This document shows positions 18,553-64,000 of a DNA stretch of 64,000 nt, piece by piece. Below the pieces are notes generated by a model, which saw only the letters and a list, made by a program, of their open reading frames with translations, had not been told where the DNA came from and searched no databases. Location: NCBI RefSeq assembly GCF_964355755.1, contig NC_092671.1, forward strand, positions 15,557,742 to 15,621,741, written 5' to 3'. Within the stretch, counting starts at the first letter, position 1. Each line of letters begins with the position of its first letter. Made by a program: the position numbers and the translations under genes. Origin of the DNA: Antedon mediterranea. Its lineage: Eukaryota > Animalia > Echinodermata.

Positions 18553-23589
<5,037 letters not shown>

Positions 23590-51400: not shown

Positions 51401-54400
51401 AGAAATGGATACATTACAGGTATAGTTATCTCATCTTCCTTTACTGTGCAGAACCGTGTTTAAGTATAGTGGTACATATTAGGGAGGTTTCGCAACCTTA
51501 CAAATACGATAACGAAAACGGATATGTCATACATTTGTGAAACTTTTGAGCTGATCCCCATTTCATATTCGTAAAGCGTATTCGTGTTGACGAATATCAC
51601 CAGTCATATTCGTAACTACAAAACGAGTATAGTTTTTGATCTATTTTGCACATTTTGCATTTGAATCAGGAATGATTCATGATTATAATATAATTATAGA
51701 TTTATTGAAAGTAATTTACTAAAGTAATTTACTAAAATGCCAAGTCAATTTTGATAAATAGCAGTTTTTAAAGTCCTCACTCGCTTTGATGTTACGCTAG
51801 GCCTAGGCAGCCAAGCACCAAGCAACACGTACCTGCGCTTCGCTCAAATTTACCGCAGTCATATTTTGGACGCGCCTTAATATTTCGTTGCCATGCGAAA
51901 CAGATTTTTTATGACTTACGAAAACGAATATGTGTGCGTGACGTATCCGTTTTTGTTATCGTATTCGTAAGATTGCGAAACCTCTCTAATACTTATGATG
52001 TTTGCATTTAATAATAATAATTGCCATAAGGAATGTTGCTAACAATTCTAATCTAATTAATAAATCTAATAGGGAGATGCAATGAAGTATATGGCTGAAA
52101 TGGCGAACATGAAAGAAGGAAAAGAAATTTCCAATGATCAACTTAGAGAAGAGTTGACAGAAGCTGAGCTGAAAATAGAAAACATTGAAAAAGAACTTGC
52201 AGACCAATCAACAAGATATGAACAGGAACTCAAGTCGTTACAGGTGGGCTAAAATTCAAATACTAGAAAAAAGAATACGATACTGATCCGCAAGATGCAA
52301 TAATATCTCATTATTTGTTTAGATTGTAGATACCTTCAGTTTTTAGTTTGTAAAACTAAAAGTACCCTAAAGTATAGTGTTTTTTTTTCTATAAATGACA
52401 TTCTTCTTGAATCAAATCTAATAGGAAGATGGAATGAAATATATGACAGAAATAGAACAACTTAAAGAAGAGAAGGAAAAGATAAATGAAATGTTAAAGG
52501 AACAAATTGTAGAAGCTGAAAAGAAACTAGAGACAAGTCAAGAACAGCACCAACAGGAAATTAGCACCTTACAGGTAGGAAACACTTCCTTGAAAATTGT
52601 TGATATTGTTTAGATGAGAATGATAACTAGACAAATGACACTCCTATTTGTTTTGAAATGTCTTACATACAGACTGATTCAATCAAATACATGACTAAGA
52701 TGGAAATGCTAAAAGAAGAAAAGGATGCTGCCAATGTCAGACAGATAGAAGATGAAGAAACAATAGAAAGAGTCAAGCAAGAGGTAGCAGATCAATCTAT
52801 TAGATATCAACAAGAAATCAATACATTGATGGTATGTTTACCTAAATGGCCAGTAACTGTTATACAAATAATAAATATAGGAGTTTCAATGTGAAAAATG
52901 TTTCACGAGTTGGAAGATTGGCTATTCAATTTAACGAAATGAGTTTATGCATGCTTGCAATGAACGAAATTATTCCCCTCAATCAACAAGTATAAAACAT
53001 GAATTATTTGTTTTATAACACACCTAACACAATCAATCGATTTTACCATGCAATAAAGTTTATCACAAATAGCGAGAGCGATGCATGATGAAGAAATTGG
53101 GAGCAATAGCGCCACCACCAGTATATAAAGTTATTGGCTATTTCTCCCAACCATTCCCATCATGCATTGTGCAATGACGTTCCTCGCAAAATCAAGCTAT
53201 TTGCAATAGACATTATAGAACTAATACAGGTGTGTTATACAATGTAATGTTGTCGTTGTGTACAAGTACATGATATTATTCCCAAGAACAATATTAGAAA
53301 GAAAGTATCTATGAATGACATTAATGTGTGAAAAGTTCTCATGTAAAGACAATCGAGCTATATTCATGTACACCTGAACAAGGAAGCTATGCATCATGTA
53401 GTTTGTGATCTTGTTTGATGTATTTGTTTAGATTTTAGCATTTGTTCTTTGTTTGTTCTAACTTACAGTGTAGCATAAAGGACTTACAAATGGAGCTAAC
53501 ATCACTGCAGGAAACAAACGAGGCTGCAGAACAAGACGATTGGGCTTTAAGTAAAGTTTGCAATGATCTTAAATTAGAATTGGAGGAAGAACGGCAACAA
53601 AAGAAACAAATGAATGATGTATTGAAGCAAGAACAAGTAAGTTGTAAAAAAAAAATATATGGCTTTATTTAAAAATGTTTCAATTTAACAATTGTATTGA
53701 AGTAACAAAGTACTTGGCGTATTTTATGGTCGCTCTTTGTGTTTTCCAACTGATGAATACGTGTAGATAGTGCACCCTCTTCCGGATGAGATGTTAAGCT
53801 GTTGGTCCTGTGTGCAACATGGCTCATGTGCATGTTAAAGAAATTGGGCAGTACACCAGGAGATTCGAAGATTGTACTGTCCAAGTCGAAGATATCCTTG
53901 GTGTACTACTACTACTGTGTCATGTATAATTATTCTGTTTTTCAGTTATGCATTTCTTCGCATTTGATTACTACTTTAATTGTAATAATTTGATTGTTAC
54001 TTTAAAAAAATGATTATGTATAAGTTATATATCTATTTTTTTCTGTAGGATAAGTGTTCAGATCTGATGTCAAAACATGACTTGTTGGTGAGTCAACTAG
54101 AAAAATTAAAACGTTCAGAATGTGATCTTGAAAAGTTGTGCGATCAGATCCAGGAGGAACAAGAGGAAGAAGAAAGAAAACATAAAGAAACAAAAGAAAA
54201 ATTAAACAAATTAGAGGTAATTTACTAGTTTTTTTGTTGTTTGTGTGCTCAGTCATAAGTTGTAATAAGTGTTTTTCTGGTTTCTTTCATTTATTAAACC
54301 ATACTTAGTATGTAAATTTCTGGAATTGTTTGGAAGTACGGTATATGAAATCCATGTAATTTGACCAATTGTCAATTGGTTTAATTGCTTGTGTTGTGCT

Positions 54401-56671
54401 CTATCCCAAAAATTACTTTCTTCTGCTGCAGGAAAAATATTCAAAACATGACGTTTTAGTGAGTCAACTAGAAAAAATGAAACGTTCAGAAAGTGATCTA
54501 GAAAAGTTGTGTGATCAGATCCAGGAGGAACAAGAAGAAGAAGAAAGAAAACATCAAGAAACAAAGGAAAAATTAAACAAATTAGAGGTAAGAGGCCATT
54601 TGTGTTTTTAATCTATTATTTTTGAATATTTTAGTGTTTTGAAATGGTTGTCTTGTACTTTTATATCCTATACTTTTTATAATCGATTATTTCAATTTTT
54701 TTGTTTTAGAAAAAGTTTTTAGACTTTAAACAAAAATTTGCTGAAATAAATGCAGCATGCGAAAAGATTAAAAAGGAAAAGAAAGACGACGAAACAGAAC
54801 TTAAAAAGACAAAAACTAAACTGGCTGAACTTGAGGTGAGAAGACGTTTAATATTTGAAACAATATTCAATATGTACAATTGTGCAATGCTATATTAAAC
54901 CAATATTTACATTTATTTTACTTCAAAAATTAAATATCGATAATAAAAGCACAACAAAAAAAAACCAACTGTACTGTTCTATCTCAATAGCAATAACCTA
55001 TGTAAATACCGATACTTTTGTTATTTTATTCTTTAGTAATTACATTACCTTTAAATTGTGTTTAAAATTATTTGTTTTGATGTTGTTAGGCCACTGTAAA
55101 AAAGAACCAGTATTTAACAGATGTAAATGCACTAAAGGCCCTTCAACAAGAGCTTCTGGATAAGAAAATGAAAATTGTGTCCTTAGAATCGGAAATTCTA
55201 AAATGTACAGACCCTCTTGAAAAAAGGTAAGCCTTTATATAATTATGAAAGCTAGTGTACACTAGGAAACTTGATCAAACTTTTTTACTTAACAAATCGC
55301 TAGTTTCCTCATATCTTTCACAATTTCATTACAATTGAATTTGCAATACTTTGAAAGTTTGAAATACAATACTATTAGTAAATTTTGTTAATTTTTAGAA
55401 TTTCTCAACTTACCAAGGAACTTGCTGACAGTTTTGAGAAGGTTGAAAGTTGGAAGAATGAAGTGAAAAGATTGCGAAGACTTGATAACGCAGGTACACA
55501 TTTATATAAATATTTTTACCAACAGAATGTCACAATAGTCTTCTTCTCCACATGCCATGTCTTACAAACGATTATGGCTTTCCAATTGTTCAATCTGAAA
55601 CTGTTTCAGTATTCAGTTTGGTGGCAGCACTCGACATGAAGGGACCTTCAGGGGAGTAGAAAGTTGTGGTATGTGTCATCCACACCCAGTAGGCTGCAAG
55701 TTGCAGGTTATTCCCCCATTTACATGGATGTATTATGAAAGTTGGTAATGTGATCATTTGTTTATATTGTAGAGGATGGCAACACCTTGCGAAGATCAGA
55801 GGCTGGTTCTTCCGGGTCTGGCATCATTCAGGAATGTGCTGTGTTTACCCTGAAAGCAGAGAAGTCTAAGCTGGAACTGGAGTTGAAGAAATCAAAACAC
55901 AAAGTTAATGATCTTGAAAAGAAATACAATGAGAAAAGCATGTTTTACCAAGAAGAAATGTGCGTAGTTGGTCACTTGTTGTAGATGTTATGTTATAATA
56001 TAATGGTAGTTTTATTTCAACGGTATGCATTTATCAATTCTCACTGTGTAGTTTTTCTGTTTTTCTTAGTACAAGAAACACAAGACTTCGAGCTGAATTG
56101 AAGCGCTATGTGGAAAAAGTTAGTAGAATTGAGAAATTTCAAGAACCAACAGCTAAAGATGGAAAGAGGCCTCTCAATGGTAAGAGAATGGTTTTCTTTT
56201 ATGTAAATAGTTTCCAAAAATATATCTTTGTAACACAAACATTGGAATTTTGATATTTTATTTAACCTCAACACATGCTAAAATCGTTTACAGAAGCTAA
56301 CATACCAATTGACTGAATAGATGTTTCAATTTAGTCAATCCCGTACAACTGTCATATTCACATTATGTAATAGTAAATATCAGATCAGGAATAACACAAC
56401 ATTTGAGACACATGTACACACTACTTGTTTGATTTGTCTGAAATATGTTAATATAATTTTATACAAAATTTATTTAGATATTCCCACAAATAGTCCGGTT
56501 AAAAAGGCAGCAAAAGTTCACACAACCGTGGAGAGTTTACCAAAAGGTTCGAAGTCTACTACATTAACTGCAATAAAGAAGACAAAACCAAACGACTGGG
56601 ATAATTTTTTGCAGCCTGCCATTGAACAATTAAATGAGGAAGACAATCCTAAACAATGTACTCAACAATAG
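30391..56671 (+). CDS. CENPE: CENP-E-like kinesin-7 (centromere-associated protein E), complete CDS, 40 exons, 2753 aa
   Basis: N-terminal kinesin motor: [25 protein letters not shown]-loop, SSRSHTIF switch [11 protein letters not shown] switch II, neck [15 protein letters not shown] long coiled-coil stalk follows. The C-terminus is ...NPKQCTQQ then stop: a CAAX-type box (vertebrate CENP-E ends CKTQ). Exons, all GT-AG except one GT(gcgt) donor, phase checked, total 8262 nt: 30391-30437, 30596-30696, 30831-30920, 32742-32860, 33149-33259, 33712-33793, 34858-34925, 35223-35291, 35528-35911, 36072-36230, 36613-36790, 36962-37128, 38034-38209, 38710-38830, 39074-39193, 39602-39736, 42446-42663, 42773-42827, 42918-45148, 45298-45568, 48235-48412, 48732-49090, 49497-49676, 49897-50034, 50319-50489, 50624-50794, 50920-51090, 51249-51419, 52073-52243, 52425-52574, 52673-52831, 53469-53636, 54049-54216, 54432-54587, 54710-54835, 55090-55226, 55399-55493, 55773-55959, 56070-56179, 56478-56671. 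Confidence 0.9.
30596..30696 (+). CDS. CENPE: CENP-E-like exon 2 (motor)
   Basis: ttatag|ggaatcc ... ttttg|gtaggt. Confidence 0.85.
30831..30920 (+). CDS. CENPE: CENP-E-like exon 3 (motor)
   Basis: tttcag|attatg ... gatg|gtacta. Confidence 0.85.
31209..32563. mobile_element. Non-autonomous DNA transposon family C, about 1.35 kb (TIR TTAAAGATGTATTGTCCCCC)
   Basis: 31209 ttaaagatgtattgtccccc ... gggggacaatacatctttaa 32563. It has GC-rich sub-terminal inverted repeats (31350-31390 versus 32290-32390). It lies in CENP-E intron 3. The ORFs 31286-31773 and 32215-32418 sit inside the element. Confidence 0.7.
32742..32860 (+). CDS. CENPE: CENP-E-like exon 4 (P-loop GQTSSGKT)
   Basis: ttaaag|gtactatt ... 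gaccag|gtagga. Confidence 0.9.
33149..33259 (+). CDS. CENPE: CENP-E-like exon 5 (motor)
   Basis: ttttatag|tcaactg ... caagag|gtaaat. Confidence 0.85.
33405..33520. mobile_element. Small hairpin/MITE-like element (cactcataaacattca ... tgaaggtttatgagtg)
   Basis: Internal inverted repeat; a related inverted fragment lies at 31120-31160. Confidence 0.4.
33712..33793 (+). CDS. CENPE: CENP-E-like exon 6 (motor)
   Basis: cttgtag|aaacgtg ... ggacc|gtaagt. Confidence 0.85.
33893..34027. mobile_element. MITE family A copy, 5' TIR degraded
   Basis: 3' TIR tttgatagtgttgacagagcttt and core ccccaaatatgg. Confidence 0.5.
34225..34484. mobile_element. MITE family B copy
   Basis: atatatcctcttgtataatcccaccccc ... 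gtgggattaaaccagaggacatacggtatag. Confidence 0.6.
34482..34829. mobile_element. Tc1/mariner-like MITE (TIR AGAGTTCTGCGGTGTGACGTCAC, TA flanks), about 350 bp
   Basis: 34482 agagttctgcggtgtgacgtcac ... gtgacgtcagcacagcagaactct 34829, flanked by TA on both sides. The TIR contains the CRE palindrome TGACGTCA. Its 3' end is 28 bp upstream of the exon 7 acceptor. Confidence 0.65.
34858..34925 (+). CDS. CENPE: CENP-E-like exon 7 (switch I SSRSH)
   Basis: tttacag|aacaacg ... tgtatt|gtaagt. Confidence 0.85.
35223..35291 (+). CDS. CENPE: CENP-E-like exon 8 (motor)
   Basis: ttcatag|gttattg ... gacta|gtaaga. Confidence 0.85.
35528..35911 (+). CDS. CENPE: CENP-E-like exon 9 (switch II DLAGSE, neck)
   Basis: ttttag|aaccttg ... 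gatcag|gtaatt. Confidence 0.9.
35909..36035 (+). repeat. About 65-bp tandem duplication copying the exon 9 splice donor
   Basis: caggtaattcatttttaaaaaagattatggattgataagtccaatcttaacataggttatttgt is followed by a second copy caggtaattcatttaaaaaagattatacggatctagtccaatcttaacataggtgtttgtt. Confidence 0.85.
36072..36230 (+). CDS. CENPE: CENP-E-like exon 10
   Basis: tctcag|tttgat ... aaaagg|gtaaga. Confidence 0.8.
36613..36790 (+). CDS. CENPE: CENP-E-like exon 11
   Basis: tttttag|ccaaac ... tgatg|gtatgt. Confidence 0.8.
36962..37128 (+). CDS. CENPE: CENP-E-like exon 12 (contains KKKRRR basic patch)
   Basis: tttacag|aatttt ... acagag|gtatgt. Confidence 0.8.
37187..37723. mobile_element. Family C MITE copy, about 540 bp (TIR AAAGATGTATTGTCCC)
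   Basis: gaaagatgtattgtcccttt ... aaagggacaatacatctttaa; in CENP-E intron 12. Confidence 0.7.
37820..37968. mobile_element. MITE family A copy
   Basis: agctctgtctacattatcaaa ... tatagtgtagacagacctt. Confidence 0.7.
38034..38209 (+). CDS. CENPE: CENP-E-like exon 13
   Basis: tttctag|aatgta ... acaat|gtaagc. Confidence 0.8.
38710..38830 (+). CDS. CENPE: CENP-E-like exon 14
   Basis: tggcag|ggaaat ... attgag|gtatta. Confidence 0.8.
39074..39193 (+). CDS. CENPE: CENP-E-like exon 15
   Basis: tccctag|ataaaac ... gatcag|gtaata. Confidence 0.8.
39602..39736 (+). CDS. CENPE: CENP-E-like exon 16
   Basis: gtgacag|actgga ... gagatg|gtaagg. Confidence 0.8.
39850..41777. mobile_element. hAT-like non-autonomous element, about 1.9 kb (TIR CAGGGCTCGATTTA), carrying a nested insertion
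   Basis: 39850 cagggctcgattta ... taaatcgagccctg 41777. Sub-terminal tagcccactgggcta / tagcccggagctg repeats. It contains the nested element at 40139-40898 and AGGCCT-rich tracts. It is followed by (CATACACTCATTCC)x3. Confidence 0.55.
40139..40898. mobile_element. hAT-like MITE (short derivative of the 27039-30016 element), 8-bp TSD AATTAACT
   Basis: Same TIRs ggcgctactgcagtttcgcaccacac ... gtgtggtgcgaaactgcagtagcgcc. The first 230 bp and last 380 bp are 90-95% identical to the ends of the 2.98-kb copy. The octamer aattaact is duplicated at both flanks. Confidence 0.8.
41894..42436. mobile_element. hAT-like MITE (TIR CAGGGATGTCACCA), 8-bp TSD TT(T/A)TATAT
   Basis: cagggatgtcaccacgg ... tggttacatccctg. 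Internal palindromic G/C homopolymers (ccccccccacccgattttttttggggggaggggggg). It ends 10 bp before the exon 17 acceptor. Confidence 0.6.
42446..42663 (+). CDS. CENPE: CENP-E-like exon 17
   Basis: tatatag|gaaagt ... gaacg|gtaaat; the acceptor is 10 bp from a hAT-like TE terminus. Confidence 0.8.
42773..42827 (+). CDS. CENPE: CENP-E-like exon 18
   Basis: tttttag|tcttac ... acaagt|gtaagt. Confidence 0.75.
42918..45148 (+). CDS. CENPE: CENP-E-like giant coiled-coil exon 19 (2231 nt) with internal 41-44-aa tandem repeats
   Basis: Corresponds to the six-frame ORF 42906-45152. Acceptor ttttgcag|agtgtt, donor acaca|gtaagt. Confidence 0.9.
43000..43900 (+). repeat. Coding tandem repeat, 123-132-bp units x about 7, inside CENP-E exon 19
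   Basis: The 41-44-aa unit [10 protein letters not shown](ERVT/V)[29 protein letters not shown] is repeated in frame. Confidence 0.9.
45298..45568 (+). CDS. CENPE: CENP-E-like exon 20
   Basis: atccag|gcttga ... cccag|gtataa. Confidence 0.8.
45735..48210 (+). mobile_element. 5'-truncated non-LTR retrotransposon (CR1/L2/Rex1-like) with a long intact RT ORF
   Basis: ORF 45747-48065 (772 aa): C-terminal part of the AP-endonuclease (INGDFNRC), an RT domain with [18 protein letters not shown] and FADDT motifs, and a 3' tail ending in (TTATC)4 at 48190-48210. It lies in CENP-E intron 20, sense orientation, 25 bp upstream of the exon 21 acceptor. Confidence 0.85.
48235..48412 (+). CDS. CENPE: CENP-E-like exon 21
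   Basis: tttaaag|gacctt ... ttaaag|gttcgt. Confidence 0.8.
48732..49090 (+). CDS. CENPE: CENP-E-like exon 22
   Basis: atttag|actcaa ... ttacag|gtaaca. Confidence 0.8.
49497..49676 (+). CDS. CENPE: CENP-E-like exon 23
   Basis: atatag|gatgag ... caatg|gtattt. Confidence 0.8.
49897..50034 (+). CDS. CENPE: CENP-E-like exon 24 (ends ..QEINTLQ)
   Basis: ttacag|gagaag ... tacag|gtggga. Confidence 0.8.
50107..50246. mobile_element. MITE family A copy
   Basis: Same TIRs; core gtgcccatatatggacc. Confidence 0.75.
50319..50489 (+). CDS. CENPE: CENP-E-like exon 25 (57-aa module, ends ..QEMDTLQ)
   Basis: aattag|gaggat ... tacag|gtatag. Confidence 0.8.
50624..50794 (+). CDS. CENPE: CENP-E-like exon 26 (57-aa module, ends ..QELKSLQ)
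   Basis: taatag|aaagat ... tacag|gtgggc. Confidence 0.8.
50920..51090 (+). CDS. CENPE: CENP-E-like exon 27 (57-aa module, ends ..QEISTLQ)
   Basis: aatag|gaagat ... tacag|gtagga. Confidence 0.8.
51249..51419 (+). CDS. CENPE: CENP-E-like exon 28 (near-identical duplicate of exon 25)
   Basis: aattag|gaggat ... tacag|gtatag. Confidence 0.75.
51481..51985. mobile_element. MITE (TIR AGGGAGGTTTCGCAA(C/T)CTTAC(A/G)AATACGATAAC(G/A)AAAACGG), about 505 bp
   Basis: About 40-bp terminal inverted repeats. It is present in duplicate copy 2 (the intron after exon 28). The paralogous intron after exon 25 has the empty site ggtacat-gatgtttgc. Confidence 0.8.
52073..52243 (+). CDS. CENPE: CENP-E-like exon 29 (duplicate of exon 26)
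   Basis: taatag|ggagat ... tacag|gtgggc. Confidence 0.75.
52425..52574 (+). CDS. CENPE: CENP-E-like exon 30 (duplicate of exon 27 with a 21-nt deletion)
   Basis: aatag|gaagat ... tacag|gtagga. Confidence 0.75.
52673..52831 (+). CDS. CENPE: CENP-E-like exon 31
   Basis: catacag|actgat ... tgatg|gtatgt. Confidence 0.75.
53469..53636 (+). CDS. CENPE: CENP-E-like exon 32
   Basis: cttacag|tgtagc ... aacaa|gtaagt. Confidence 0.8.
54049..54216 (+). CDS. CENPE: CENP-E-like exon 33
   Basis: tctgtag|gataag ... tagag|gtaatt. Confidence 0.8.
54432..54587 (+). CDS. CENPE: CENP-E-like exon 34 (paralogous to exon 33)
   Basis: gctgcag|gaaaaa ... tagag|gtaaga. Confidence 0.8.
54710..54835 (+). CDS. CENPE: CENP-E-like exon 35
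   Basis: ttttag|aaaaag ... ttgag|gtgaga. Confidence 0.8.
55090..55226 (+). CDS. CENPE: CENP-E-like exon 36
   Basis: ttgttag|gccact ... aaaag|gtaagc. Confidence 0.8.
55399..55493 (+). CDS. CENPE: CENP-E-like exon 37
   Basis: tttttag|aatttc ... cgcag|gtacac. Confidence 0.8.
55773..55959 (+). CDS. CENPE: CENP-E-like exon 38
   Basis: attgtag|aggatg ... gaaat|gtgcgt (non-canonical GTGCGT donor, the weakest junction in the model). Confidence 0.65.
56070..56179 (+). CDS. CENPE: CENP-E-like exon 39
   Basis: tcttag|tacaag ... caatg|gtaaga. Confidence 0.75.
56478..56671 (+). CDS. CENPE: CENP-E-like terminal exon 40 (CAAX-type box CTQQ, stop TAG 56669-56671)
   Basis: atttag|atattc ...; agrees with the six-frame ORF ending at 56671. 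Confidence 0.85.
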
Positions 56672-56772
56672 ATACATAACCTATGTAAATAATATGAATA
56701 ATTTATCTACCTATTAAAATCATTTTAATCAGTGTGTATAGGTCTAATATATATATATTGGAGAGAGACACA

Positions 56773-56891: not shown

Positions 56892-57666
56892 TAATGCATA
56901 AAGCTTGGTTCCAAGTTTGGATGCAACACAATGACGTAGAAGATTGGTCAAATAACTTACGGTGTGCTTGTGTTGCATCCTAATGGGAACCATGTTTGTC
57001 TTACTGTATAAAGTACTGTACAAAATGTGTATGAATCCATCAATAGGATGAGTGTCTTTCAAATATTCCTCATTCCAATTTAGATCATGCATTATAATAT
57101 TAGTTTATTAAGCAAAAACTTACATTTATTAATAATTTTATATTTATAAATTGTATTAGTTTATATTACTTGTTATTGCATTCGTTGAAGTTGCCTTTTA
57201 TTTCTGGTCAAAAGGATAAGTATTTGTTTTTATATTATTTAAATAATGTATAGTGAAATTATAACAAAGAAAGTTTGTATAATTGTTTTTATGCATTTAA
57301 GTAGAGACAGGGAGATTCCCTGGTAACAACTTTCCTAAATAAATTACTAGTAGTTCTACTCCATCTCTGTTTGATATTTTTGTAATCAATCTTATATTTT
57401 CTTATTATCAATAATTGTTTCCACAATAAATATATATAGTGGATTTCTTTAGGTAGATTTTCTCTATATACGAAAAATAACCAGTATGACCTTTTCAAAA
57501 ATCAATTATTATGTAGTAATATTGCTTTATATGCAAATATCTCCCATTATCATTATCATCTTATGTAGTCATATTAACCAGTTATGGCCTACTAAAATAA
57601 AAGGGTCGAAATTTTGCCAATTGTTGAATATTTCTCTGTACTACTATACGGTATATAGTACAGAAA

Positions 57667-57900
57667 GGAGTTGGATAGCCGAGTGGTTAGGACACTTGAC
57701 TGTCATACAGATAGACCCGGGTTCAATTCCCGACAACTCCCAGTTCACTCAGCTGTAAATGAGTACCTAGTTGAAAATACTAGGGAGAAAAAAGGCGGTG
57801 TGGAGAGGAACTGGCCACCCTACCACATAATTCCGAGCCTTGGTACAATGAGCTCCTAACAGCTCATTCCCCTACGTTCAGAATGAACCTTTACCTTTAT
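57667..57900 (+). ncRNA. tRNA-like pol III element (tRNA pseudogene or tRNA-derived SINE head plus body)
   Basis: A perfect 7-bp acceptor stem GGAGTTG/CAACTCC, an A-box TAGCCGAGTGGTTAGG, and a B-box/T-arm GGTTCAATTCC. The D and anticodon arms do not fold. A non-tRNA tail of about 160 bp follows. Confidence 0.35.
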
Positions 57901-60900
57901 AGTACAGGGATTTTTTCCAAAAATGGCAAAAATATCCAGTTTTTAAAATTCAATCATTATTATGCGATAATACAGTATTGCTATATATGTGCATATATTG
58001 CGTTATCATCTTATTATAGATTATTTGTAACCAATTATGTCGAAAAATAAAATGGTCGAAATTTGGTGATTTTTCGAAAATTTCTCTGTACTATACTGCC
58101 CTGTCATGAAAGAACGACTCAACTGACACATTTTTCAAAAATCACTTTTTTAACTTTTTGGGCTATTTAGGGCCGGGAATGATACACCTTGTGGTATATT
58201 CAGATATTCAAAATTTTAACTAGAAATATGAAATTTAAAAATCAAAATACCACTCAATTACAAGTGTGTGTGTTACTATTGTCACCAAAGACTAACTCAA
58301 CTACAAATGCCATGAAAGACTCACTCAAATGACATATTAACACCTATTATCATAGGAAACCCACCATTCAAGTGCACAACAATGGTGTTAATTGCACAGC
58401 AAGCTGTGTAATGTTGTTGTTTTAAATATAAAATAATTTGGTACTGCCCTACGAATAATTGTCAATAATTATTTTATTCAATACTCACTTAAACTTGTTT
58501 AGTTATTATTAGAGTATTAATTTTATTTCTGTAATATTTAGAATTAAATGCCCCGGAGAGAGACTATGTGAACACCGTAATGATATTATTATTGAATATT
58601 CTCCCCCTTAAATTAATACTTAAAACTAAAGTAAAAATACAAGAAACATGAAAAATAATTTTCGAAAATTTCCCTGTACTATAGTACAGGAATTTTTCAA
58701 AAAATGGCAAATTTTCGACCTTTTTATTTTTCGATAAAACTGGTTATAATAGCACAATTGACATGCGCTGAACTCATTATTCGACCCGGCGTATGTTTAT
58801 TATGCAATAGTAACCATTTATGTCAAAATATAAAAGGGTCGAAAATCGGCAATTTTTCAAAAATTTCCCTGTACTATAGTACAGGGATTTTTAAAAAAAT
58901 GGCAATTTTCAACCTTTTTTTTTCTCGATAAAACTGGTTACTATAGCACAATTGACATGCGCAGAATCCATTATTCGCCTCTGCGCATGTTTATTATGCT
59001 ATCTTAACCATTTATGTAAAAACTTCTCTGCGCATGTTTATTATGCAATAGTAACCATTTATGTCAAAAAATAAAAGGGTGGAAAATCGGCAATTTTTCA
59101 AAAATTTCCCTGTACTATAGTACAGGAATTTTTCAAAATATGGCAAATTTTCGACCTTTTTATTTGTCGATAAAACTGGTTAACCACTTTTGACACAAAT
59201 GGTTACTATAGCATAATAAACATGCGCAGAGTCGAATATTGGGTTCTGCGCATGTCAATTTTGCTATAGTAACCGTTTATGTCAAATATGGTTATGATAG
59301 CACAATTGACATGCGCATAACCCATTATTCGACTCTTCGCATGTTTATTATGATATAGTAACCATTTATGTCAAAACTGGATACTGTAGCACAATTGACA
59401 TGCGCAGAACCCATTATTCGTCTCTTCGCATGTTTATTATGCTATAGTAACCATTTATGTCAAAAACTGGTTACTGTAGCACAATTGACATGCGCAGAAC
59501 CCATTATTCGTCTCTGCGCATGTTTATTATGATATAGTAACCATTTTTGTCAAAAAATAAAAGGGTCGAAAATCGGCAATTTTTCGAAAATTTCCCTGTA
59601 CTAGTATAGTACACGAATTTTTTTTTTAAATGGCCAATTTTCGACCTTTTTATTTTTCGATAAAACTGGTTACTATAGGACAATTAACATGCGCAGAACC
59701 ATTTATGTCAAAACTGGTTACTGTAGCACAATTGACATGCGCAGAACCCATTATTCGTATCTGCGCATGTTTATTATGCAATAGTAACCATTTATGTCAC
59801 AAAATTTCCCTGTACTATAGTACAGGGATTTTTCCAAAAATGGCAAATTTTCGACCTTTTTATTTTTCGATAAAACTGGTTACTATAGCACAATTGACAT
59901 GCGCATAACCCATTATTCGCCTCTGCGCAAGTTTATTATGCTATAGTAACCATTTATGTCAAATATGGTTATGATAGCACAAAACAAAAGAGTCGAAAAT
60001 CGGCCATTTTTTCAAAATTTCCCTGTACAGGGATTTTTTTCAAGAAAATTGCCAATTTTCGACCTTTTTATTTTTCGATAAAACTGGTTACTATAGCACA
60101 ATTAACATGCGCAGAACCCATTAGTCGCCTTTGCGCATGTTTATTATGCTATAGTAACCACTTTTGACATAAATGGTTACTATAGCATAATAAACATGCG
60201 CAGAGTCGAATAATGGGTTCTGCGCATGTCAATTGTGCTATAGTAACCATTTATGTCAAATATGGTTATGATATCACAATTGACATGCGCAGAACCTATT
60301 ATTCGACTCTGCGCATGTTTATTATGCAATAGTAACCATTTACGTCAAAAAATAAAAGGGTCGAAAATCGGCCATTTTTCGAAAATTTCCCTGTACTAAT
60401 AGTACAGGAATTTTTTTTTTAAATGGCCAATTTTCGACCTTTTTATTTTTTGATAAAACTGGTTACTATAGCACACTTAACATGTGCAGAACCCATTACT
60501 CGCCTCTGCGCATGTTTATTATGCTATAGTAACCATTTATGTCAAATATGGTTATGATAGCACAATTAACATGCGCAGAACCCATTAGTCGCCTCTGCGC
60601 ATGTTTATTATGCTATAGTAACCATTTATGTCACAAAATAAAAGGGTCGAAAATCGGCAATTTTTCGAAAATTTCCCTGTACTATAGGCTATATAGTTCA
60701 GGAATTTTTCCAAAAATTGCAAATTTTCGACCTTTTTATTTTTCGATAAAACTAGTTACTATAGCACAATTAACATGCGCAGAACCCATTACTCGCATCT
60801 GCGCATGTTTATTATGCTATAGTAACCATTTATGTCAAATATGGTTATGATAGCACAATTGACATGCGCAGAACCCATTATTCGACTCTGCGCATGTTTA

Positions 60901-63900
60901 TTATGCAATAGTAACAATTTTTGTCAAAAAATAAAAGGGTCGAAAATCGGCAATTTTTCGAAAATTTCCCTGTACTAGTATAGTACACGAATTTTTTTTT
61001 TAAATGGCCAATTTTCGACCTTTTTATTTTTCGATAAAACTGGTTACTATAGGACAATTAACATGCGCAGAACCATTTATGTCAAAACTGGTTACTGTAG
61101 CACAATTGACATGCGCAGAACCCATTATTCGTATCTGCGCATGTTTATTATGCAATAGTAACCATTTATGTCACAAAATTTCCCTGTACTATAGTACAGG
61201 GATTTTTCCAAAAATGGCAAATTTTCGACCTTTTTATTTTTCGATAAAACTGGTTACTATAGCACACTTAACATGTGCAGAACCCATTACTCGCCTCTGC
61301 GCATGTTTATTATGCTATAGTAACCATTTATGTCAAATATGGTTATGATAGCACAATTAACATGCGCAGAACCCATTAGTCGCCTCTGCGCATGTTTATT
61401 ATGCTATAGTAACCATTTATGTCACAAAATAAAAGGGTCGAAAATCGGCAATTTTTCGAAAATTTCCCTGTACTATAGGCTATATAGTTCAGGAATTTTT
61501 CCAAAAATTGCAAATTTTCGACCTTTTTATTTTTCGATAAAACTAGTTACTATAGCACAATTAACATGCGCAGAACCCATTACTCGCATCTGCGCATGTT
61601 TATTATGCTATAGTAACCATTTATGTCAAATATGGTTATGATAGCACAATTGACATGCGCAGAACCCATTATTCGTCTCTGCGCATGTTTATTATGATAT
61701 AGTAACCATTTTTGTCAAAAAATAAAAGGGTCGAAAATCGGCAATTTTTCGAAAATTTCCCTGTACTAGTATAGTACACGAATTTTTTTTTTAAATGGCC
61801 AATTTTCGACCTTTTTATTTTTCGATAAAACTGGTTACTATAGGACAATTAACATGCGCAGAACCATTTATGTCAAAACTGGTTACTGTAGCACAATTGA
61901 CATGCGCAGAACCCATTATTCGTATCTGCGCATGTTTATTATGCAATAGTAACCATTTATGTCACAAAATTTCCCTGTACTATAGTACAGGGATTTTTCC
62001 AAAAATGGCAAATTTTCGACCTTTTTATTTTTCGATAAAACTGGTTACTATAGCACACTTAACATGTGCAGAACCCATTACTCGCCTCTGCGCATGTTTA
62101 TTATGCTATAGTAACCATTTATGTCAAATATGGTTATGATAGCACAATTAACATGCGCAGAACCCATTAGTCGCCTCTGCGCATGTTTATTATGCTATAG
62201 TAACCATTTATGTCACAAAATAAAAGGGTCGAAAATCGGCAATTTTTCGAAAATTTCCCTGTACTATAGGCTATATAGTTCAGGAATTTTTCCAAAAATT
62301 GCAAATTTGACATGCGCATAACCCATTATTCGCCTCTGCGCAAGTTTATTATGCTATAGTAACCATTTATGTCAAATATGGTTATGATAGCACAAAACAA
62401 AAGAGTCGAAAATCGGCCATTTTTTCAAAATTTCCCTGTACAGGGATTTTTTTCAAGAAAATTGCCAATTTTCGACCTTTTTATTTTTCGATAAAACTGG
62501 TTACTATAGCACAATTAACATGCGCAGAACCCATTAGTCGCCTTTGCGCATGTTTATTATGCTATAGTAACCACTTTTGACATAAATGGTTACTATAGCA
62601 TAATAAACATGCGCAGAGTCGAATAATGGGTTCTGCGCATGTCAATTGTGCTATAGTAACCATTTATGTCAAATATGGTTATGATATCACAATTGACATG
62701 CGCAGAACCTATTATTCGACTCTGCGCATGTTTATTATGCAATAGTAACCATTTACGTCAAAAAATAAAAGGGTCGAAAATCGGCCATTTTTCGAAAATT
62801 TCCCTGTACTAATAGTACAGGAATTTTTTTTTTAAATGGCCAATTTTCGACCTTTTTATTTTTTGATAAAACTGGTTACTATAGCACACTTAACATGTGC
62901 AGAACCCATTACTCGCCTCTGCGCATGTTTATTATGCTATAGTAACCATTTATGTCAAATATGGTTATGATAGCACAATTAACATGCGCAGAACCCATTA
63001 GTCGCCTCTGCGCATGTTTATTATGCTATAGTAACCATTTATGTCACAAAATAAAAGGGTCGAAAATCGGCAATTTTTCGAAAATTTCCCTGTACTATAG
63101 GCTATATAGTTCAGGAATTTTTCCAAAAATTGCAAATTTTCGACCTTTTTATTTTTCGATAAAACTAGTTACTATAGCACAATTAACATGCGCAGAACCC
63201 ATTACTCGCATCTGCGCATGTTTATTATGCTATAGTAACCATTTATGTCAAATATGGTTATGATAGCACAATTGACATGCGCAGAACCCATTATTCGACT
63301 CTGCGCATGTTTATTATGCAATAGTAACAATTTACGTCAAAAAATAAAAAGGGAACATTTCCCTGTACTATATATAGTACAGGAATTTATTTAAAAAATG
63401 GCAAATTTTCGACCTTTTTATTTTTCGATAAAACTGGTTACTATAGCACAATTAACATGCGCAGAACCCATTAGTTGCCTCTGTGCATGTTTATTATGCT
63501 ATAGTAACCATTTATGTCAAAACTGGTTACTGTAGCAATTTTCGAGAATTTTGATAACGCAACATATGTGCATATATAGCAATATTATCGCATAATAATT
63601 GAATTTAAAAAATTGAATATTTTGGCCAAAGTTAAATTATTATGCGATAATATTGCTATATATGCGCATATGTTGCGTGTTATAACGTGTTATAGAGTGT
63701 TTGTAATGTCGAAAAAGAAAAGGGTTGAAATTTGGTCATTTTTAGACAATAATCCCTGTACTATACTACAGGGATTTTTTCAAGAAATGACCAAATTTCG
63801 GCCTTTCTATTTTTCGACTTAAGTGGTCACTATTATCATAATTTACATGCGCAAAACACGTAAAATGATACTCATTTATGAAAAAAAAATAAAAGTGTCG

Positions 63901-64000
63901 AAATTTTACAATTTGTCGAAAAATGGCCAAAATATGGCCTTTAAAAAAAAAAATTATTATGCAATAATATTATTGCTATATATGCGCATATATCACGTTA
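57900..64000. repeat. Complex palindromic satellite (foldback-like), more than 6 kb, continuing past the window end
   Basis: Two palindromic modules alternate. P1 is about 90 bp centred on CCCTGTACTATAGTACAGGG, with arms ggtcgaaaat.../...attttcgacc. P2 is about 75 bp: GGTTACTATAGCACAATTGACATGCGCAGAAC...TCTGCGCATGTTTATTATGCTATAGTAACC. There is a 791-bp higher-order period (ORF copies at 61004/61795 and 61330/62121/62952). About 70-bp inverted repeats lie at the two ends (57945-58010 versus 63545-63615). The many 60-114-aa ORFs here are repeat translations. Confidence 0.85.

What the first reader, a model, noticed from the sequence alone, without database searches (positions are those of the whole stretch)
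57900..64000. Foldback-like satellite built from two alternating perfect or near-perfect palindromic modules
The last 6 kb is not a simple satellite. About 90-bp P1 palindromes (core CCCTGTACTATAGTACAGGG) alternate with about 75-bp P2 hairpin units (30-bp arms GGTTACTATAGCAYAATWRACATGCGCAGA). They organise into a 791-bp higher-order repeat. The array is bounded by about 70-bp inverted repeats (57945-58010 versus 63545-63615). This is the architecture of Foldback-type elements or MITE-derived satellites. Such dense nested palindromes are prone to cruciform extrusion and instability. A tRNA-like SINE sits at its 5' edge. The array continues beyond the window.
Basis: seen in the sequence. Interest (0 to 1): 0.65.

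Follow-up and report, generated by a model that had tools for sequence, protein, structure and literature searches.

The report
Tandem array of hairpin-forming repeat modules
The last 6.4 kb of the window is a real head-to-tail tandem repeat (satellite-like) array in a feather-star-type genome; its units are hairpin-forming palindromes, but it is not a Foldback transposon, and it is a previously undescribed example of a known kind of repetitive DNA.

Summary
The palindromic modules are real and far beyond chance. P1 is a 101-nt hairpin in a 104-118 bp unit. P2 is a 76-nt hairpin in an 89-bp period. All copies lie between 57.6 and 64 kb.

Several details needed correcting:
- Each P1 is followed by one to four P2 units; the commonest period is 293 bp (P1 + 2 P2).
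- The 791-bp higher-order repeat covers only 2.4 copies, inside a mosaic of 98-99.8 % identical blocks at offsets of 791, 1374, 2165 and 2413 bp.
- The "bounding" inverted repeat is a third recurrent module (P3). It is present in both orientations and forms its own near-perfect hairpin at 63557-63677.

All 20 P1 copies that carry the left-arm motif, and 28 of 31 full P2 copies, point the same way. The inverted symmetry therefore comes from each module, not from the array, so Foldback architecture is not met. A young homogeneous core (58659-63540) sits inside older diverged copies of the same family, also in direct orientation. The hairpins show no compensatory maintenance and are being eroded by microhomology deletions and changes at the palindrome centres. 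A tRNA-derived SINE with a 10-bp target-site duplication is inserted in a P1 centre.

A MITE origin is plausible but could not be tested here. The LINE similarity points to a crinoid host. Overall this is an ordinary, moderately unusual satellite.

The parts
57500..57553 (+). Weak, old P3-like module at the decayed 5' edge of the repeat region
   Evidence: blastn match to P3 at 71 % over 59 nt, E = 5e-4. This is a borderline match.
57594..57663 (+). Old P1 copy: left arm and centre, up to the SINE insertion point. It includes the upstream target-site duplication TATAGTACAG at 57654-57663.
   Evidence: nhmmer P1 profile E = 1.2e-12; sequence read.
57664..57897 (+). tRNA-derived SINE (234 bp) inserted into the centre of the old P1 copy. 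The tRNA-like head is at 57667-57741, with an A box TAGCCGAGTGG (57676-57686) and a B box GGTTCAATTCC (57720-57730). The tail ends ...ACCTTTACCTT.
   Evidence: The 10-bp direct repeats TATAGTACAG at 57654-57663 and 57898-57907 are read directly. Removing the SINE restores a P1 palindrome. Sub-threshold tRNA-like Rfam matches cover 57667-57741. ARAGORN finds no tRNA gene. It is a single copy in the window.
57898..57954 (+). Right arm of the same old P1 copy, starting with the downstream target-site duplication
   Evidence: blastn at 81 % over 58 nt; nhmmer E = 3.9e-9.
57945..58034 (+). P3 module (copy P3a). It occupies the position that P2 holds in the young array and does not form a hairpin on its own.
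   Evidence: Reference copy. Folding z = +1.1. Its 3' part resembles the P2 right arm and spacer only weakly, z = 2-6.
58035..58095 (+). Old P1 left arm, ending at the palindrome centre
   Evidence: blastn at 88.7 % over 53 nt; nhmmer E = 1.7e-11. With P3a it aligns in direct orientation to 63635-63765 (score 132 against a null of 22.6 +/- 2.7).
58096..58658 (.). 563 bp of DNA that is not a P1/P2 repeat, interrupting the repeat region. It is flanked by 25-bp direct repeats of the P1 left arm and centre (58071-58095 and 58659-58683, 24 of 25 identical).
   Evidence: It has no other copy in the window. The flanking repeats are read directly.
58659..63540 (+). Young, largely homogeneous core array. 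It holds 18 P1 copies, each followed by 1-4 P2 units (31 full and 5 partial P2 copies). The order of P1 centre types from 59545 is b a c d e | b a e | b a e* c d e f.
60421..62308 (+). 2.39 copies of the 791-bp higher-order unit. Each unit is three sub-units of 293, 256 and 242 bp: P1e-P2-P2, P1b-half P2-P2, and truncated P1a-P2-P2.
   Evidence: The diagonal at offset 791 is 99.45 % identical over 1097 nt.
59894..60936 (+). 1043-bp block duplicated at 62307-63349 (offset 2413, 99.81 % identical). The duplication junction at 62307 joins a P1 right arm to the inside of a P2 left arm at a short microhomology.
   Evidence: the junction is read.
59200..59275 (-). Inverted P2 unit. The same inverted arrangement is found at 60174-60249 and 62587-62662. 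These are the only modules that run against the orientation of the array.
   Evidence: blastn is 93-96.5 % on the - strand against 84-85 % on the + strand. The units align with the others only when reverse-complemented.
63557..63677 (.). Near-perfect hairpin made of an inverted P3 copy (63552-63606) and a direct P3 copy (63636-63701), with 44-nt arms and a 34-nt loop.
   Evidence: Folding energy -47 kcal/mol, z = -12.4; blastn matches.
63709..63817 (+). Old P1 copy on the 3' side, in the same orientation as the array
   Evidence: nhmmer gives 87.0 bits on + against 66.3 bits on -; blastn at 83 %.
63825..63924 (+). Diverged P2 left-arm remnant (63825-63860), followed by a P1 remnant that has lost its centre (63884-63924)
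   Evidence: nhmmer E = 0.019 for the P2 remnant and 8e-4 for the P1 remnant; sequence read.
63953..64000 (+). A further P3 copy, cut by the end of the window
   Evidence: blastn at 86 % over 50 nt, E = 1.3e-9.

Best explanation
This is a locally amplified, complex tandem-repeat (satellite-like) array. It lies in intergenic DNA about 0.8-1 kb downstream of a CENP-E-like kinesin gene, in a crinoid-type genome.

**Structure (shown)**
- The repeat family has a composite unit: one long imperfect palindrome (P1) plus one or more shorter hairpin units (P2 in the young part, P3 in the old part).
- All units lie head to tail.
- A young core (58659-63540) has grown inside an older, diverged array of the same family.

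**How it grows and decays**
- Shown: the core contains 0.3-1.1 kb blocks that are 98-99.8 % identical, at offsets of 791, 1374, 2165 and 2413 bp.
- Inferred: these blocks arose by recent unequal exchange, or by replication-based and microhomology-mediated segmental duplication.
- Shown: matching arms in different copies are more alike than the two arms of one copy, and substitutions in one arm are not compensated in the other.
- Inferred: the palindromes are inherited from the ancestral unit and are not maintained.
- Shown: the hairpins carry deletions of one arm between 4-5 bp direct repeats, near-complete excision of one hairpin, changes at the P1 centres, one local inversion, and two foreign insertions at P1 centres.
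- Inferred: hairpin or cruciform formation makes the array locally unstable and causes these lesions.

**Origin and function (inferred, untested)**
- The ancestral unit of about 200 bp may have been a palindromic non-autonomous DNA transposon (MITE-like).
- There is no evidence for any cellular function.
For: **Real and confined to this region**
- 66 P2-arm matches against 0 expected.
- 20 P1 left-arm motifs against 0.03 expected.
- Sensitive profile search finds significant copies only between 57594 and 63926.

**Head-to-tail orientation**
- 20 of 20 P1 motifs are on the + strand.
- Every P1 copy matches better in + orientation.
- 28 of 31 full P2 copies are +.
- The old flanks 57945-58095 and 63635-63765 align in direct orientation: score 132 for + against 77 for -, null 22.6 +/- 2.7.

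**Nested higher-order blocks** are listed. TRF reports periods of 89 and 293 bp.

**Hairpin potential:** z = -10 for P1, -9.2 for P2 and -12.4 for the P3 pair.

**No maintenance of the hairpins**
- In P2, 88.2 % of cells pair against 88.1 % after shuffling (223 of 500 shuffles reach the observed value). Two positions never pair in any copy.
- In P1, left arms are 0.88-1.00 identical between core copies, but the two arms within one copy are only 0.67-0.85 identical. That is no higher than left-versus-right arm comparisons between different copies.

**Erosion, read directly**
- A 33-bp deletion of the P1 left arm between AAAAT repeats, in the copies at 59801, 61175 and 61966.
- A 42-bp deletion of the P2 loop and right arm between AACC repeats, at 59667-59705 and its duplicates.
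- The remnant TGGTTA|ACC at 59177-59185.
- The shortened centre CCCTGTACAGGG.

**Age and context**
- The SINE with a 10-bp target-site duplication inside an old P1 shows that the peripheral copies predate that insertion.
- Host assignment rests on a LINE that is 81 % identical in protein and 81.6 % in DNA to Anneissia japonica.
Against: - Only one locus could be examined. Copy number in the genome, chromosomal location and the full length of the array are unknown.
- The TE-origin part has no direct support. No termini with target-site duplications were found, there are no solo copies in 57 kb of flanking DNA, and there is no transposase nearby.
- Blocks that are 99-100 % identical could in principle include assembly collapse or expansion, and no reads are available to check this.
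- One old copy (63712-63817) carries the same derived stretch GAAATTTGGTCATTT in both arms, and 3 pairs show changes on both sides. Some arm-to-arm exchange, or a separate subfamily origin, therefore cannot be excluded.
Confidence: 0.72

Rival explanations
1. The array is a multimer of complete MITEs. In this reading the real unit is a palindromic non-autonomous DNA transposon of about 200 bp, read in the other phase. Its ends are ...CCCTG and CAGGG..., and they meet at the P1 centre, flanked by TA as in Tc1/mariner elements. The variable P1 centre would then be the junction between adjacent elements. The array would have arisen from adjacent or nested insertions followed by unequal exchange.
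For: - P1 centres all read CCCTG-TA-(variable)-TA-CAGG, and one variant is exactly CCCTG-TA-CAGGG.
- One boundary between repeat and unique DNA (58095/58096) falls at a P1 centre.
- The whole P2 arm-P1-P2 arm stretch is one long imperfect palindrome, with arms of up to 280 nt at 78 % complementarity.
- Routes from MITEs to satellites are documented for Xstir, miDNA4 and Angel (PMC12628747).
Against: - The other two array boundaries (58659 and about 63540) are not at P1 centres.
- There are no solo copies in 57 kb.
- The variable centres are themselves palindromic. The short variant is equally well explained by a deletion between GTAC repeats, as expected from instability at palindrome centres.
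- The resemblance to a Tc1/mariner end is recalled from memory and was not tested against a TE library.
Confidence: 0.15
2. The region is a Foldback-type transposon. In this reading 57.9-63.6 kb is one element whose long terminal inverted repeats are built of sub-repeats, bounded by the inverted pair 57945-58010 and 63545-63615.
For: - An inverted match of 63 bp at 82.5 % exists at those positions.
- Foldback elements with repeat-built arms are known, including in a sea urchin, and they can seed satellites (PMC4079207).
Against: - The module orientation is uniform across the region, so the two halves are not inverted relative to each other.
- The same P3 module also occurs in direct orientation at 63636-63701 and 63953-64000.
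- The right-hand copy is one arm of a local hairpin.
- The old flanks on both sides are in direct orientation.
- No target-site duplication adjoins the pair; the inverted similarity simply fades out.
Confidence: 0.04
3. The array is carried by a Helitron or Helentron. It would be the internal tandem array of a non-autonomous rolling-circle element, or a product of rolling-circle read-through, as in oysters and Drosophila.
For: - Such elements commonly carry satellite-like arrays and palindromes in marine invertebrates (PMC7492417; PMC12628747).
- The array is short, lies close to a gene and is in euchromatin-like surroundings.
Against: - No Rep/helicase ORF is present, and no recognisable Helitron ends were seen in the window. 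The only TE proteins are LINE reverse transcriptases.
- The hairpins are long and AT-rich, unlike the short GC-rich 3' hairpin of Helitrons (general knowledge).
- This was not tested against a TE library.
Confidence: 0.05
4. The array is a hairpin-RNA or small-RNA locus. It would be transcribed, for example by read-through from the upstream kinesin gene, and its hairpins processed into miRNA-, siRNA- or piRNA-type small RNAs.
For: - Tandem hairpins of 76 and 101 nt have strong predicted stability.
- There are many sub-threshold matches to miRNA precursor models.
Against: - No match reaches any family's gathering score, and the matches occur on both strands, as expected for any long hairpin.
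- There is no compensatory conservation of the stems.
- Individual hairpins are being deleted.
Confidence: 0.03
5. The complex structure is an assembly artefact, produced by mis-joining or duplicating reads from a simpler repeat.
For: Blocks up to 1043 bp long are 99.8 % identical.
Against: - The blocks carry private variants.
- There is a unique duplication junction at a microhomology, at 62307.
- Module variants are interleaved in a consistent order.
- The SINE insertion has a clean target-site duplication.
Confidence: 0.03

Closest known systems
Satellite DNAs with long dyad symmetry inside the monomer. Examples are Tribolium madens TmSat2 (about 600-bp palindrome-like monomer), the T. brevicornis major satellite, and the Trichogramma brassicae 385-bp satellite with 80-bp inverted repeats (PMC13081366).
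   Same: Both are tandem arrays whose repeat unit is largely made of inverted segments able to form hairpins or cruciforms. Both have higher-order repeat structure and two related intermingled module types.
   Different: - This array is 6.4 kb or more and lies next to a gene. The Tribolium arrays are megabase-sized and (peri)centromeric.
- There is no array-level (macro-dyad) inversion of sub-arrays here. The orientation is uniform apart from single inverted P2 units.
- The sequence is unrelated, and the host is a crinoid.
MITE-derived or MITE-borne satellites: Xenopus Xstir and miDNA4, zebrafish Angel, and bivalve pearl-type elements (PMC12628747)
   Same: In both cases short palindromic units are arranged in tandem. 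The proposed mechanisms for those satellites rely on stem-loop formation and microhomology, and both kinds of trace are visible here.
   Different: No parental MITE with terminal inverted repeats and a target-site duplication has been identified here. There are no solo copies in the window.
Foldback transposons: Drosophila FB, Galileo and Tetris; sea urchin TU elements (PMC4079207)
   Same: Both have a modular, repeat-built structure with strong fold-back potential. Tetris shows that repeats of this kind can seed satellites.
   Different: The defining long terminal arms in opposite orientation, the middle domain and the 8-10 bp target-site duplications were tested here and not found.
Human palindromic AT-rich repeats (PATRRs) (PMC3197554)
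   Same: Both are AT-rich, near-perfect palindromes whose centres are polymorphic through central deletions and are preferred sites of breakage. P1 shows seven centre variants, and both foreign insertions sit at P1 centres.
   Different: PATRRs are single-locus palindromes of 450-590 bp, not tandem modules. Cruciform extrusion has been shown for PATRRs and is only predicted here.
Tandem arrays borne by Helentrons or Helitrons: Crassostrea gigas HINE elements and Drosophila DINE-TR1 (PMC7492417; PMC12628747)
   Same: Both are short satellite-like arrays scattered near genes in a marine invertebrate, and palindromic motifs are present.
   Different: No Helitron or Helentron ends or Rep/helicase remnants are seen in the window.

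Membership tests
Satellite / tandem-repeat DNA with higher-order repeats | Repeat units arranged head to tail in one orientation | tested here: met
   20 of 20 P1 left-arm motifs are on the + strand. 28 of 31 full P2 copies are +. TRF reports periods of 89 and 293 bp.
Satellite / tandem-repeat DNA with higher-order repeats | Multi-unit blocks that are more alike than neighbouring units (higher-order periodicity) | tested here: met
   Blocks of 306-1097 nt are 98.0-99.8 % identical at offsets of 791, 1374, 2165 and 2413 bp. Neighbouring units match at only 77-94 %.
Satellite / tandem-repeat DNA with higher-order repeats | High copy number in the genome, or long arrays (tens of kb to Mb) | not testable with these tools
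   Only 6.4 kb is visible and it is cut by the window end. No other sequence from the source genome could be retrieved.
Foldback transposons | Two long terminal arms in inverted orientation, often built of sub-repeats, around a middle domain | tested here: not met
   Orientation is uniform across the array and in both old flanks. The only inverted terminal candidate is a 63-bp module at 82.5 % identity that also occurs in direct orientation.
Foldback transposons | Target-site duplication (8-10 bp) flanking the element | tested here: not met
   There is no direct repeat next to 57945 or 63606. The inverted similarity continues and fades out into 57930-57944 and 63607-63625.
Foldback transposons | Several dispersed copies sharing the same ends | not testable with these tools
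MITE-derived satellite | A parental MITE with terminal inverted repeats and a fixed target-site duplication, present as solo dispersed copies | tested here: inconclusive
   No solo copies in 57 kb. P1 centres fit a TA-flanked end-to-end junction, but they fit palindrome-centre decay equally well. Only 1 of 3 array boundaries lies at a P1 centre.
Helitron/Helentron-borne array | Helitron or Helentron termini flanking the array, or Rep/helicase remnants | tested here: inconclusive
   No such ORF is in the window. The termini could not be tested without a TE library and without the far end of the array.
Known miRNA or other Rfam RNA families | A score at or above the family's gathering threshold | tested here: not met
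   There are no gathering-level matches in the window. The best sub-threshold scores are 70.9 against 110 bits (MIR6217) and 53.6 against 68 bits (mir-85), and matches occur on both strands.
Structured (selected) hairpin | Compensatory changes that keep the stem paired | tested here: not met
   In P2, 88.2 % of cells pair against 88.1 % after shuffling, there is 1 double-sided change, and 2 columns never pair. In P1 the arms within a copy are no more alike than arms from different copies.
tRNA-derived SINE (the inserted element) | A tRNA-like head with A and B boxes, and a target-site duplication | tested here: met
   A box TAGCCGAGTGG and B box GGTTCAATTCC lie 33 nt apart, and there is a 10-bp target-site duplication. 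tRNA-like sub-threshold Rfam matches cover 57667-57741. It is not a functional tRNA.

The most novel reading that the evidence does not exclude
The P1 centre may be a genuine transposon end-to-end junction (...CCCTG-TA-CAGGG...). On that reading the array would be a multimer of a still-unrecognised palindromic DNA transposon specific to crinoids. Alternatively, the hairpin array may be transcribed and processed into small RNAs. Either would make the locus more than a passive satellite. The evidence here excludes neither, because only one locus could be examined and no expression data were available.
Probability: 0.12. Interest if true: 0.45.

Novelty: new member of a known kind. Interest (0 to 1): 0.22.

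Why it matters
- **For satellite biology.** Satellites whose unit is almost entirely long hairpins are described as uncommon (PMC13081366). By my arithmetic, about 85 % of the young core lies in 76-101 nt dyad-symmetric segments.
- **For crinoids.** My searches of the held literature found no crinoid satellite characterisation and no echinoderm satellitome study.
- **As a record of palindrome decay.** The locus shows centre variation, arm loss at microhomologies, an excised hairpin, an inversion, and two insertions at palindrome centres.
- **Limits.** Beyond that it is ordinary repetitive DNA, with no sign of selection on the structures.
- **Practical use.** The region is likely to be hard to assemble and to amplify by PCR.

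Tried and rejected
**Searches for the repeat outside the window all found nothing**
- A full-text literature search for five sub-sequences gave 0 papers.
- Exact-pattern scans of metagenome contigs gave 0 hits for the P2 arm and 0 for the P1 right arm.
- Scans of prokaryote genome contigs and viral contigs gave 0 hits.
- A spurious 114-aa ORF from the array, searched against 5.8 billion proteins in the hope of finding called ORFs on other assemblies, gave no hit.
- The one Anneissia japonica locus that could be fetched (L001, 16 kb) contains only microsatellite-type noise and no P1, P2 or P3.

**Attempts to identify the source species**
- An exact look-up of the LINE ORF found nothing.
- The 748-aa coiled-coil exon found no homologue.
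- The source is therefore probably not A. japonica itself, and its genome is not in the collections.

**Ideas considered and rejected or left open**
- *P3 as a hairpin module.* Rejected: z = +1.1.
- *P3 as an old P2.* Only weak, same-strand, same-phase similarity (z = 2-6). Kept as a possibility only.
- *A known RNA family.* Rejected.
- *A functional tRNA gene at the edge.* Rejected.
- *A transposase or Rep protein near the array.* None found.
- *Arm-to-arm homogenisation of P1.* Not supported overall, apart from one shared stretch in the old copy at 63712.

**Technical dead ends**
- The regex best-match scan under-reported copies and was replaced by blastn, nhmmer and the DNA search.
- The megablast self-comparison culled hits and was replaced by a diagonal scan.


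Full report
**1. What the window is**

The window is AT-rich animal DNA with about 32 % G+C throughout. It carries:
- a Rab-type GTPase exon and a kinesin motor exon. The kinesin exon's best solved relative is CENP-E (1t5c, E = 3.5e-37);
- a long series of coiled-coil exons on the + strand up to about 56.7 kb;
- two LINE reverse-transcriptase ORFs.

The 772-aa LINE ORF is 81 % identical in protein to a protein of the feather star Anneissia japonica. All other hits are 51 % or lower. At the DNA level the two LINEs are 81.6 % identical over 1.5 kb. The host is therefore most likely a crinoid. It is probably not A. japonica itself, because the 748-aa coiled-coil exon finds no homologue at all. 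The repeat region starts roughly 0.8-1 kb downstream of the last plausible exon of the CENP-E-like gene, so it lies in gene-adjacent, intergenic DNA.

Yes.
All matches lie within 58742-63509, and none is expected in shuffles.
- P2 is a 76-nt hairpin with 30-nt arms and a 14-nt loop. With its spacer it repeats every 89 bp. As single-stranded DNA it folds at -27.6 kcal/mol, z = -9.2.
- P1 is a longer imperfect palindrome. It occupies 104-118 bp, of which 101 nt pair, at -33.4 kcal/mol, z = -10.0.
- blastn and a sensitive nhmmer profile search find significant P1 and P2 copies only between 57594 and 63926. None is found in the other 57 kb.
- There are 73 local inverted-repeat pairs within 57400-64000.

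**3. Corrections to the description**

(a) The exact core CCCTGTACTATAGTACAGGG is present in only 4 copies. Among 21 P1 copies, the stretch between CCCTGTAC and GTACAGG takes seven forms: TATA, TAGTATA, TAATA, TATAGGCTATATA, TATATATA, TACTATACGGTATATA, or nothing (CCCTGTACAGGG).

(b) P1 and P2 do not alternate one to one. Each of the 18 P1 copies in the core is followed by 1-4 P2 units. The commonest period is 293 bp, that is P1 plus two P2.

(c) The 791-bp higher-order repeat is real, but it covers only 60421-62308 (2.39 copies, 99.45 % identical). The core is a mosaic that also contains these blocks:
- 59894-60936 matches 62307-63349 (offset 2413, 99.81 %);
- 59477-59982 matches 60851-61356 (98.0 %) and 61642-62147 (98.8 %);
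- 61212-61696 matches 62834-63318 (99.4 %).

Written by P1 centre type, the order from 59545 is b a c d e | b a e | b a e* c d e f.

(d) The "bounding" inverted repeat exists (63 bp, 82.5 %, E = 6e-11), but it is a third recurrent module, P3.
- P3 also occurs in direct orientation at 63636-63701 and 63953-64000, and weakly at 57500-57553.
- P3 alone does not fold (z = +1.1).
- The inverted copy at 63552-63606 and the direct copy at 63636-63701 together form a near-perfect 44-nt-arm hairpin at -47 kcal/mol, z = -12.4.

(e) The SINE is not at the edge of the array. It sits inside an old P1 copy.

(f) The homogeneous array stops near 63540. Only diverged relatives reach base 64000.

**4. Orientation test, the key test for the Foldback reading**

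P1 and P2 are imperfect palindromes, so their arms can be told apart.
- The left-arm-specific P1 motif TTTCYCTGTAC occurs 20 times on the + strand and never on the - strand (0.03 expected).
- Every P1 copy scores higher in + orientation, for example 90-100 % against 77-86 % and 87.0 against 66.3 bits.
- Of the 31 full P2 copies, 28 are +. The 3 that are - are at 59200-59275, 60174-60249 and 62587-62662. The last is a copy of the second through the 2413-bp duplication.
- The diverged flanks on the two sides of the core, 57945-58095 and 63635-63765 (P3 plus P1 left arm), align with each other in direct orientation: score 132 for + against 77 for -, with a null of 22.6 +/- 2.7. They share derived states such as GAAATTTGGTSATTTT.

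The region is therefore a head-to-tail array throughout. A young core is embedded in an older array of the same family. The very long "inverted repeats" (up to 280 nt at 78 %) are a by-product of stringing palindromic modules together.

Foldback elements are defined by long terminal arms in opposite orientation around a middle domain, with 8-10 bp target-site duplications (PMC4079207). None of this is found here.

**5. Are the hairpins maintained?**

No.
- Across 17 distinct P2 sequences, 88.2 % of cells pair, the same as after shuffling partners (88.1 %; 223 of 500 shuffles are as high). There is one double-sided change, and two stem positions are mismatched in every copy.
- Variants in one arm (GGTTATGATAG, CTGTAG, CTATTGC) are not mirrored in the other arm.
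- For P1, left arms of different core copies are 0.88-1.00 identical. The two arms within one copy are only 0.67-0.85 identical, which is no better than left-versus-right arm comparisons between different copies.
- The palindromes therefore predate the amplification and are drifting.
- One exception is noted. The old copy at 63712-63817 has the same derived stretch in both arms, and RNAalifold counts 3 double-sided pairs, all in the old copies. This fits an older subfamily or occasional arm-to-arm exchange.

**6. Traces of instability, read directly**
- A 33-bp deletion of most of the P1 left arm between AAAAT repeats, in the copies at 59801, 61175 and 61966.
- A 42-bp deletion of the P2 loop and right arm between AACC repeats, at 59667-59705, 61041-61079 and 61832-61870.
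- A P2 hairpin reduced to TGGTTA|ACC at 59177-59185.
- CCCTGTACAGGG, which is the loss of TATAGTAC between GTAC repeats.
- A P1 remnant with its centre removed, at 63884-63924.
- An inverted spacer-plus-P2 unit.
- A duplication junction at 62307 that joins a P1 right arm to the inside of a P2 arm at a short microhomology.
- Both foreign insertions lie at P1 centres. One is the SINE. The other is a 563-bp non-repeat segment at 58096-58658, flanked by 25-bp direct repeats of the P1 left arm (24 of 25 identical).

With only two events this is no more than suggestive. It does match what is known for AT-rich palindromes such as human PATRRs, whose centres are deletion-prone break sites (PMC3197554).

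**7. The SINE**
- It spans 57664-57897 (234 bp) and is flanked by the 10-bp direct repeats TATAGTACAG at 57654-57663 and 57898-57907. Removing it restores a P1 palindrome.
- Its head has an A box (TAGCCGAGTGG) and a B box (GGTTCAATTCC) 33 nt apart.
- It gives sub-threshold tRNA-like Rfam matches at 57667-57741.
- ARAGORN calls no tRNA gene.
- It is a single copy in the window.

**8. Most likely explanation**

This is a satellite-like tandem array whose ancestral unit was already a compound palindrome: P1 plus a P2/P3-type unit, about 200 bp in the old flanks.
- *Shown:* head-to-tail organisation, a young core within old flanks, near-identical higher-order blocks, lack of stem maintenance, and microhomology lesions.
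- *Inferred:* growth by unequal exchange and microhomology-mediated duplication, and hairpin or cruciform formation as the cause of the lesions and of the insertion bias.
- *Speculative:* the ancestral unit was a MITE-like DNA transposon. P1 centres can be read as ...CCCTG-TA-...-TA-CAGGG..., which would be two transposon ends meeting. The centres are themselves palindromic, however. Only one of three array boundaries lies at a P1 centre, and no solo copy exists in the window.

**9. Comparison with what is known**
- **Closest in kind.** Satellites with long intramonomer dyad symmetry, such as Tribolium TmSat2, the T. brevicornis major satellite and the Trichogramma 385-bp satellite. These are described as uncommon (PMC13081366). 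Unlike Tribolium, this array shows no array-level inversion and is short and gene-adjacent.
- **Plausible ancestries that could not be tested.** MITE-to-satellite routes (Xstir, miDNA4, Angel) and Helitron/Helentron-borne arrays (PMC12628747; PMC7492417).
- **Known RNA families.** None is matched at threshold.
- **Prior descriptions.** The held literature contains no crinoid satellite description, and the sequence strings occur in no paper.

**10. Verdict**

The Foldback interpretation fails its defining test. The MITE interpretation stays open. This is a new member of a known kind of repeat, of modest interest.

Noticed in passing
window 57654-57907: A 234-bp tRNA-derived SINE with a clean 10-bp target-site duplication (TATAGTACAG) is inserted exactly at the centre of a P1 palindrome. 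It is a single copy in the 64-kb window.
   Followed up: yes
window 58071-58683: A 563-bp non-repeat segment (58096-58658) also starts at a P1 centre. It is flanked by 25-bp direct repeats of the P1 left arm (24 of 25 identical), which is too long for a usual target-site duplication. Its origin is unexplained.
   Followed up: partly
window 35540-35944 and 42906-56700 (+): A CENP-E-like kinesin gene. Its motor exon is closest to the CENP-E structure 1t5c (E = 3.5e-37). It is followed by many coiled-coil exons, and the repeat array begins about 1 kb downstream of the gene.
   Followed up: partly
window 43020-43897 (+): A 123-bp (41-codon) tandem repeat of about 7 copies at 86 % identity lies inside the open 748-aa coiled-coil exon. 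This is an in-frame coding repeat expansion in the kinesin tail. The exon found no homologue in the protein collection.
   Followed up: partly
window 45747-48065 (+) and 1094-2246 (+): There is an intact-looking LINE reverse-transcriptase ORF of 772 aa within the kinesin gene region, and a second, broken reverse-transcriptase ORF pair. The first is 81 % identical to an Anneissia japonica protein, and this is the basis for assigning the window to a crinoid.
   Followed up: yes
window 19451-20034: A 22-bp minisatellite (GTAAAATGAAGGGAATAAAATG, about 26 copies, 92 % identical) abuts a Rab/Ras-family GTPase exon on the - strand (about 20.1-20.3 kb).
   Followed up: no
window 10576-10627 and 21973-22024: A 52-nt inverted-repeat pair (88 % complementary) lies 11.3 kb apart. 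Each arm contains a 17-bp unit repeated twice (GGTGGGATTATACCCGA). They could be the ends of a large DNA transposon, or two copies of a short element in opposite orientation.
   Followed up: partly
window 27040-27439 / 40139-40543 and 29748-30016 / 40638-40898: Dispersed direct repeats of 90-260 nt at 88-95 % identity lie 11-13 kb apart. They are other interspersed repeat families and are unrelated to P1 and P2.
   Followed up: no
window 979-1032 and 4649-4698: Short tandem units contain the palindrome CCCATATATGGG or a variant of it. They may belong to another small palindromic repeat family.
   Followed up: no
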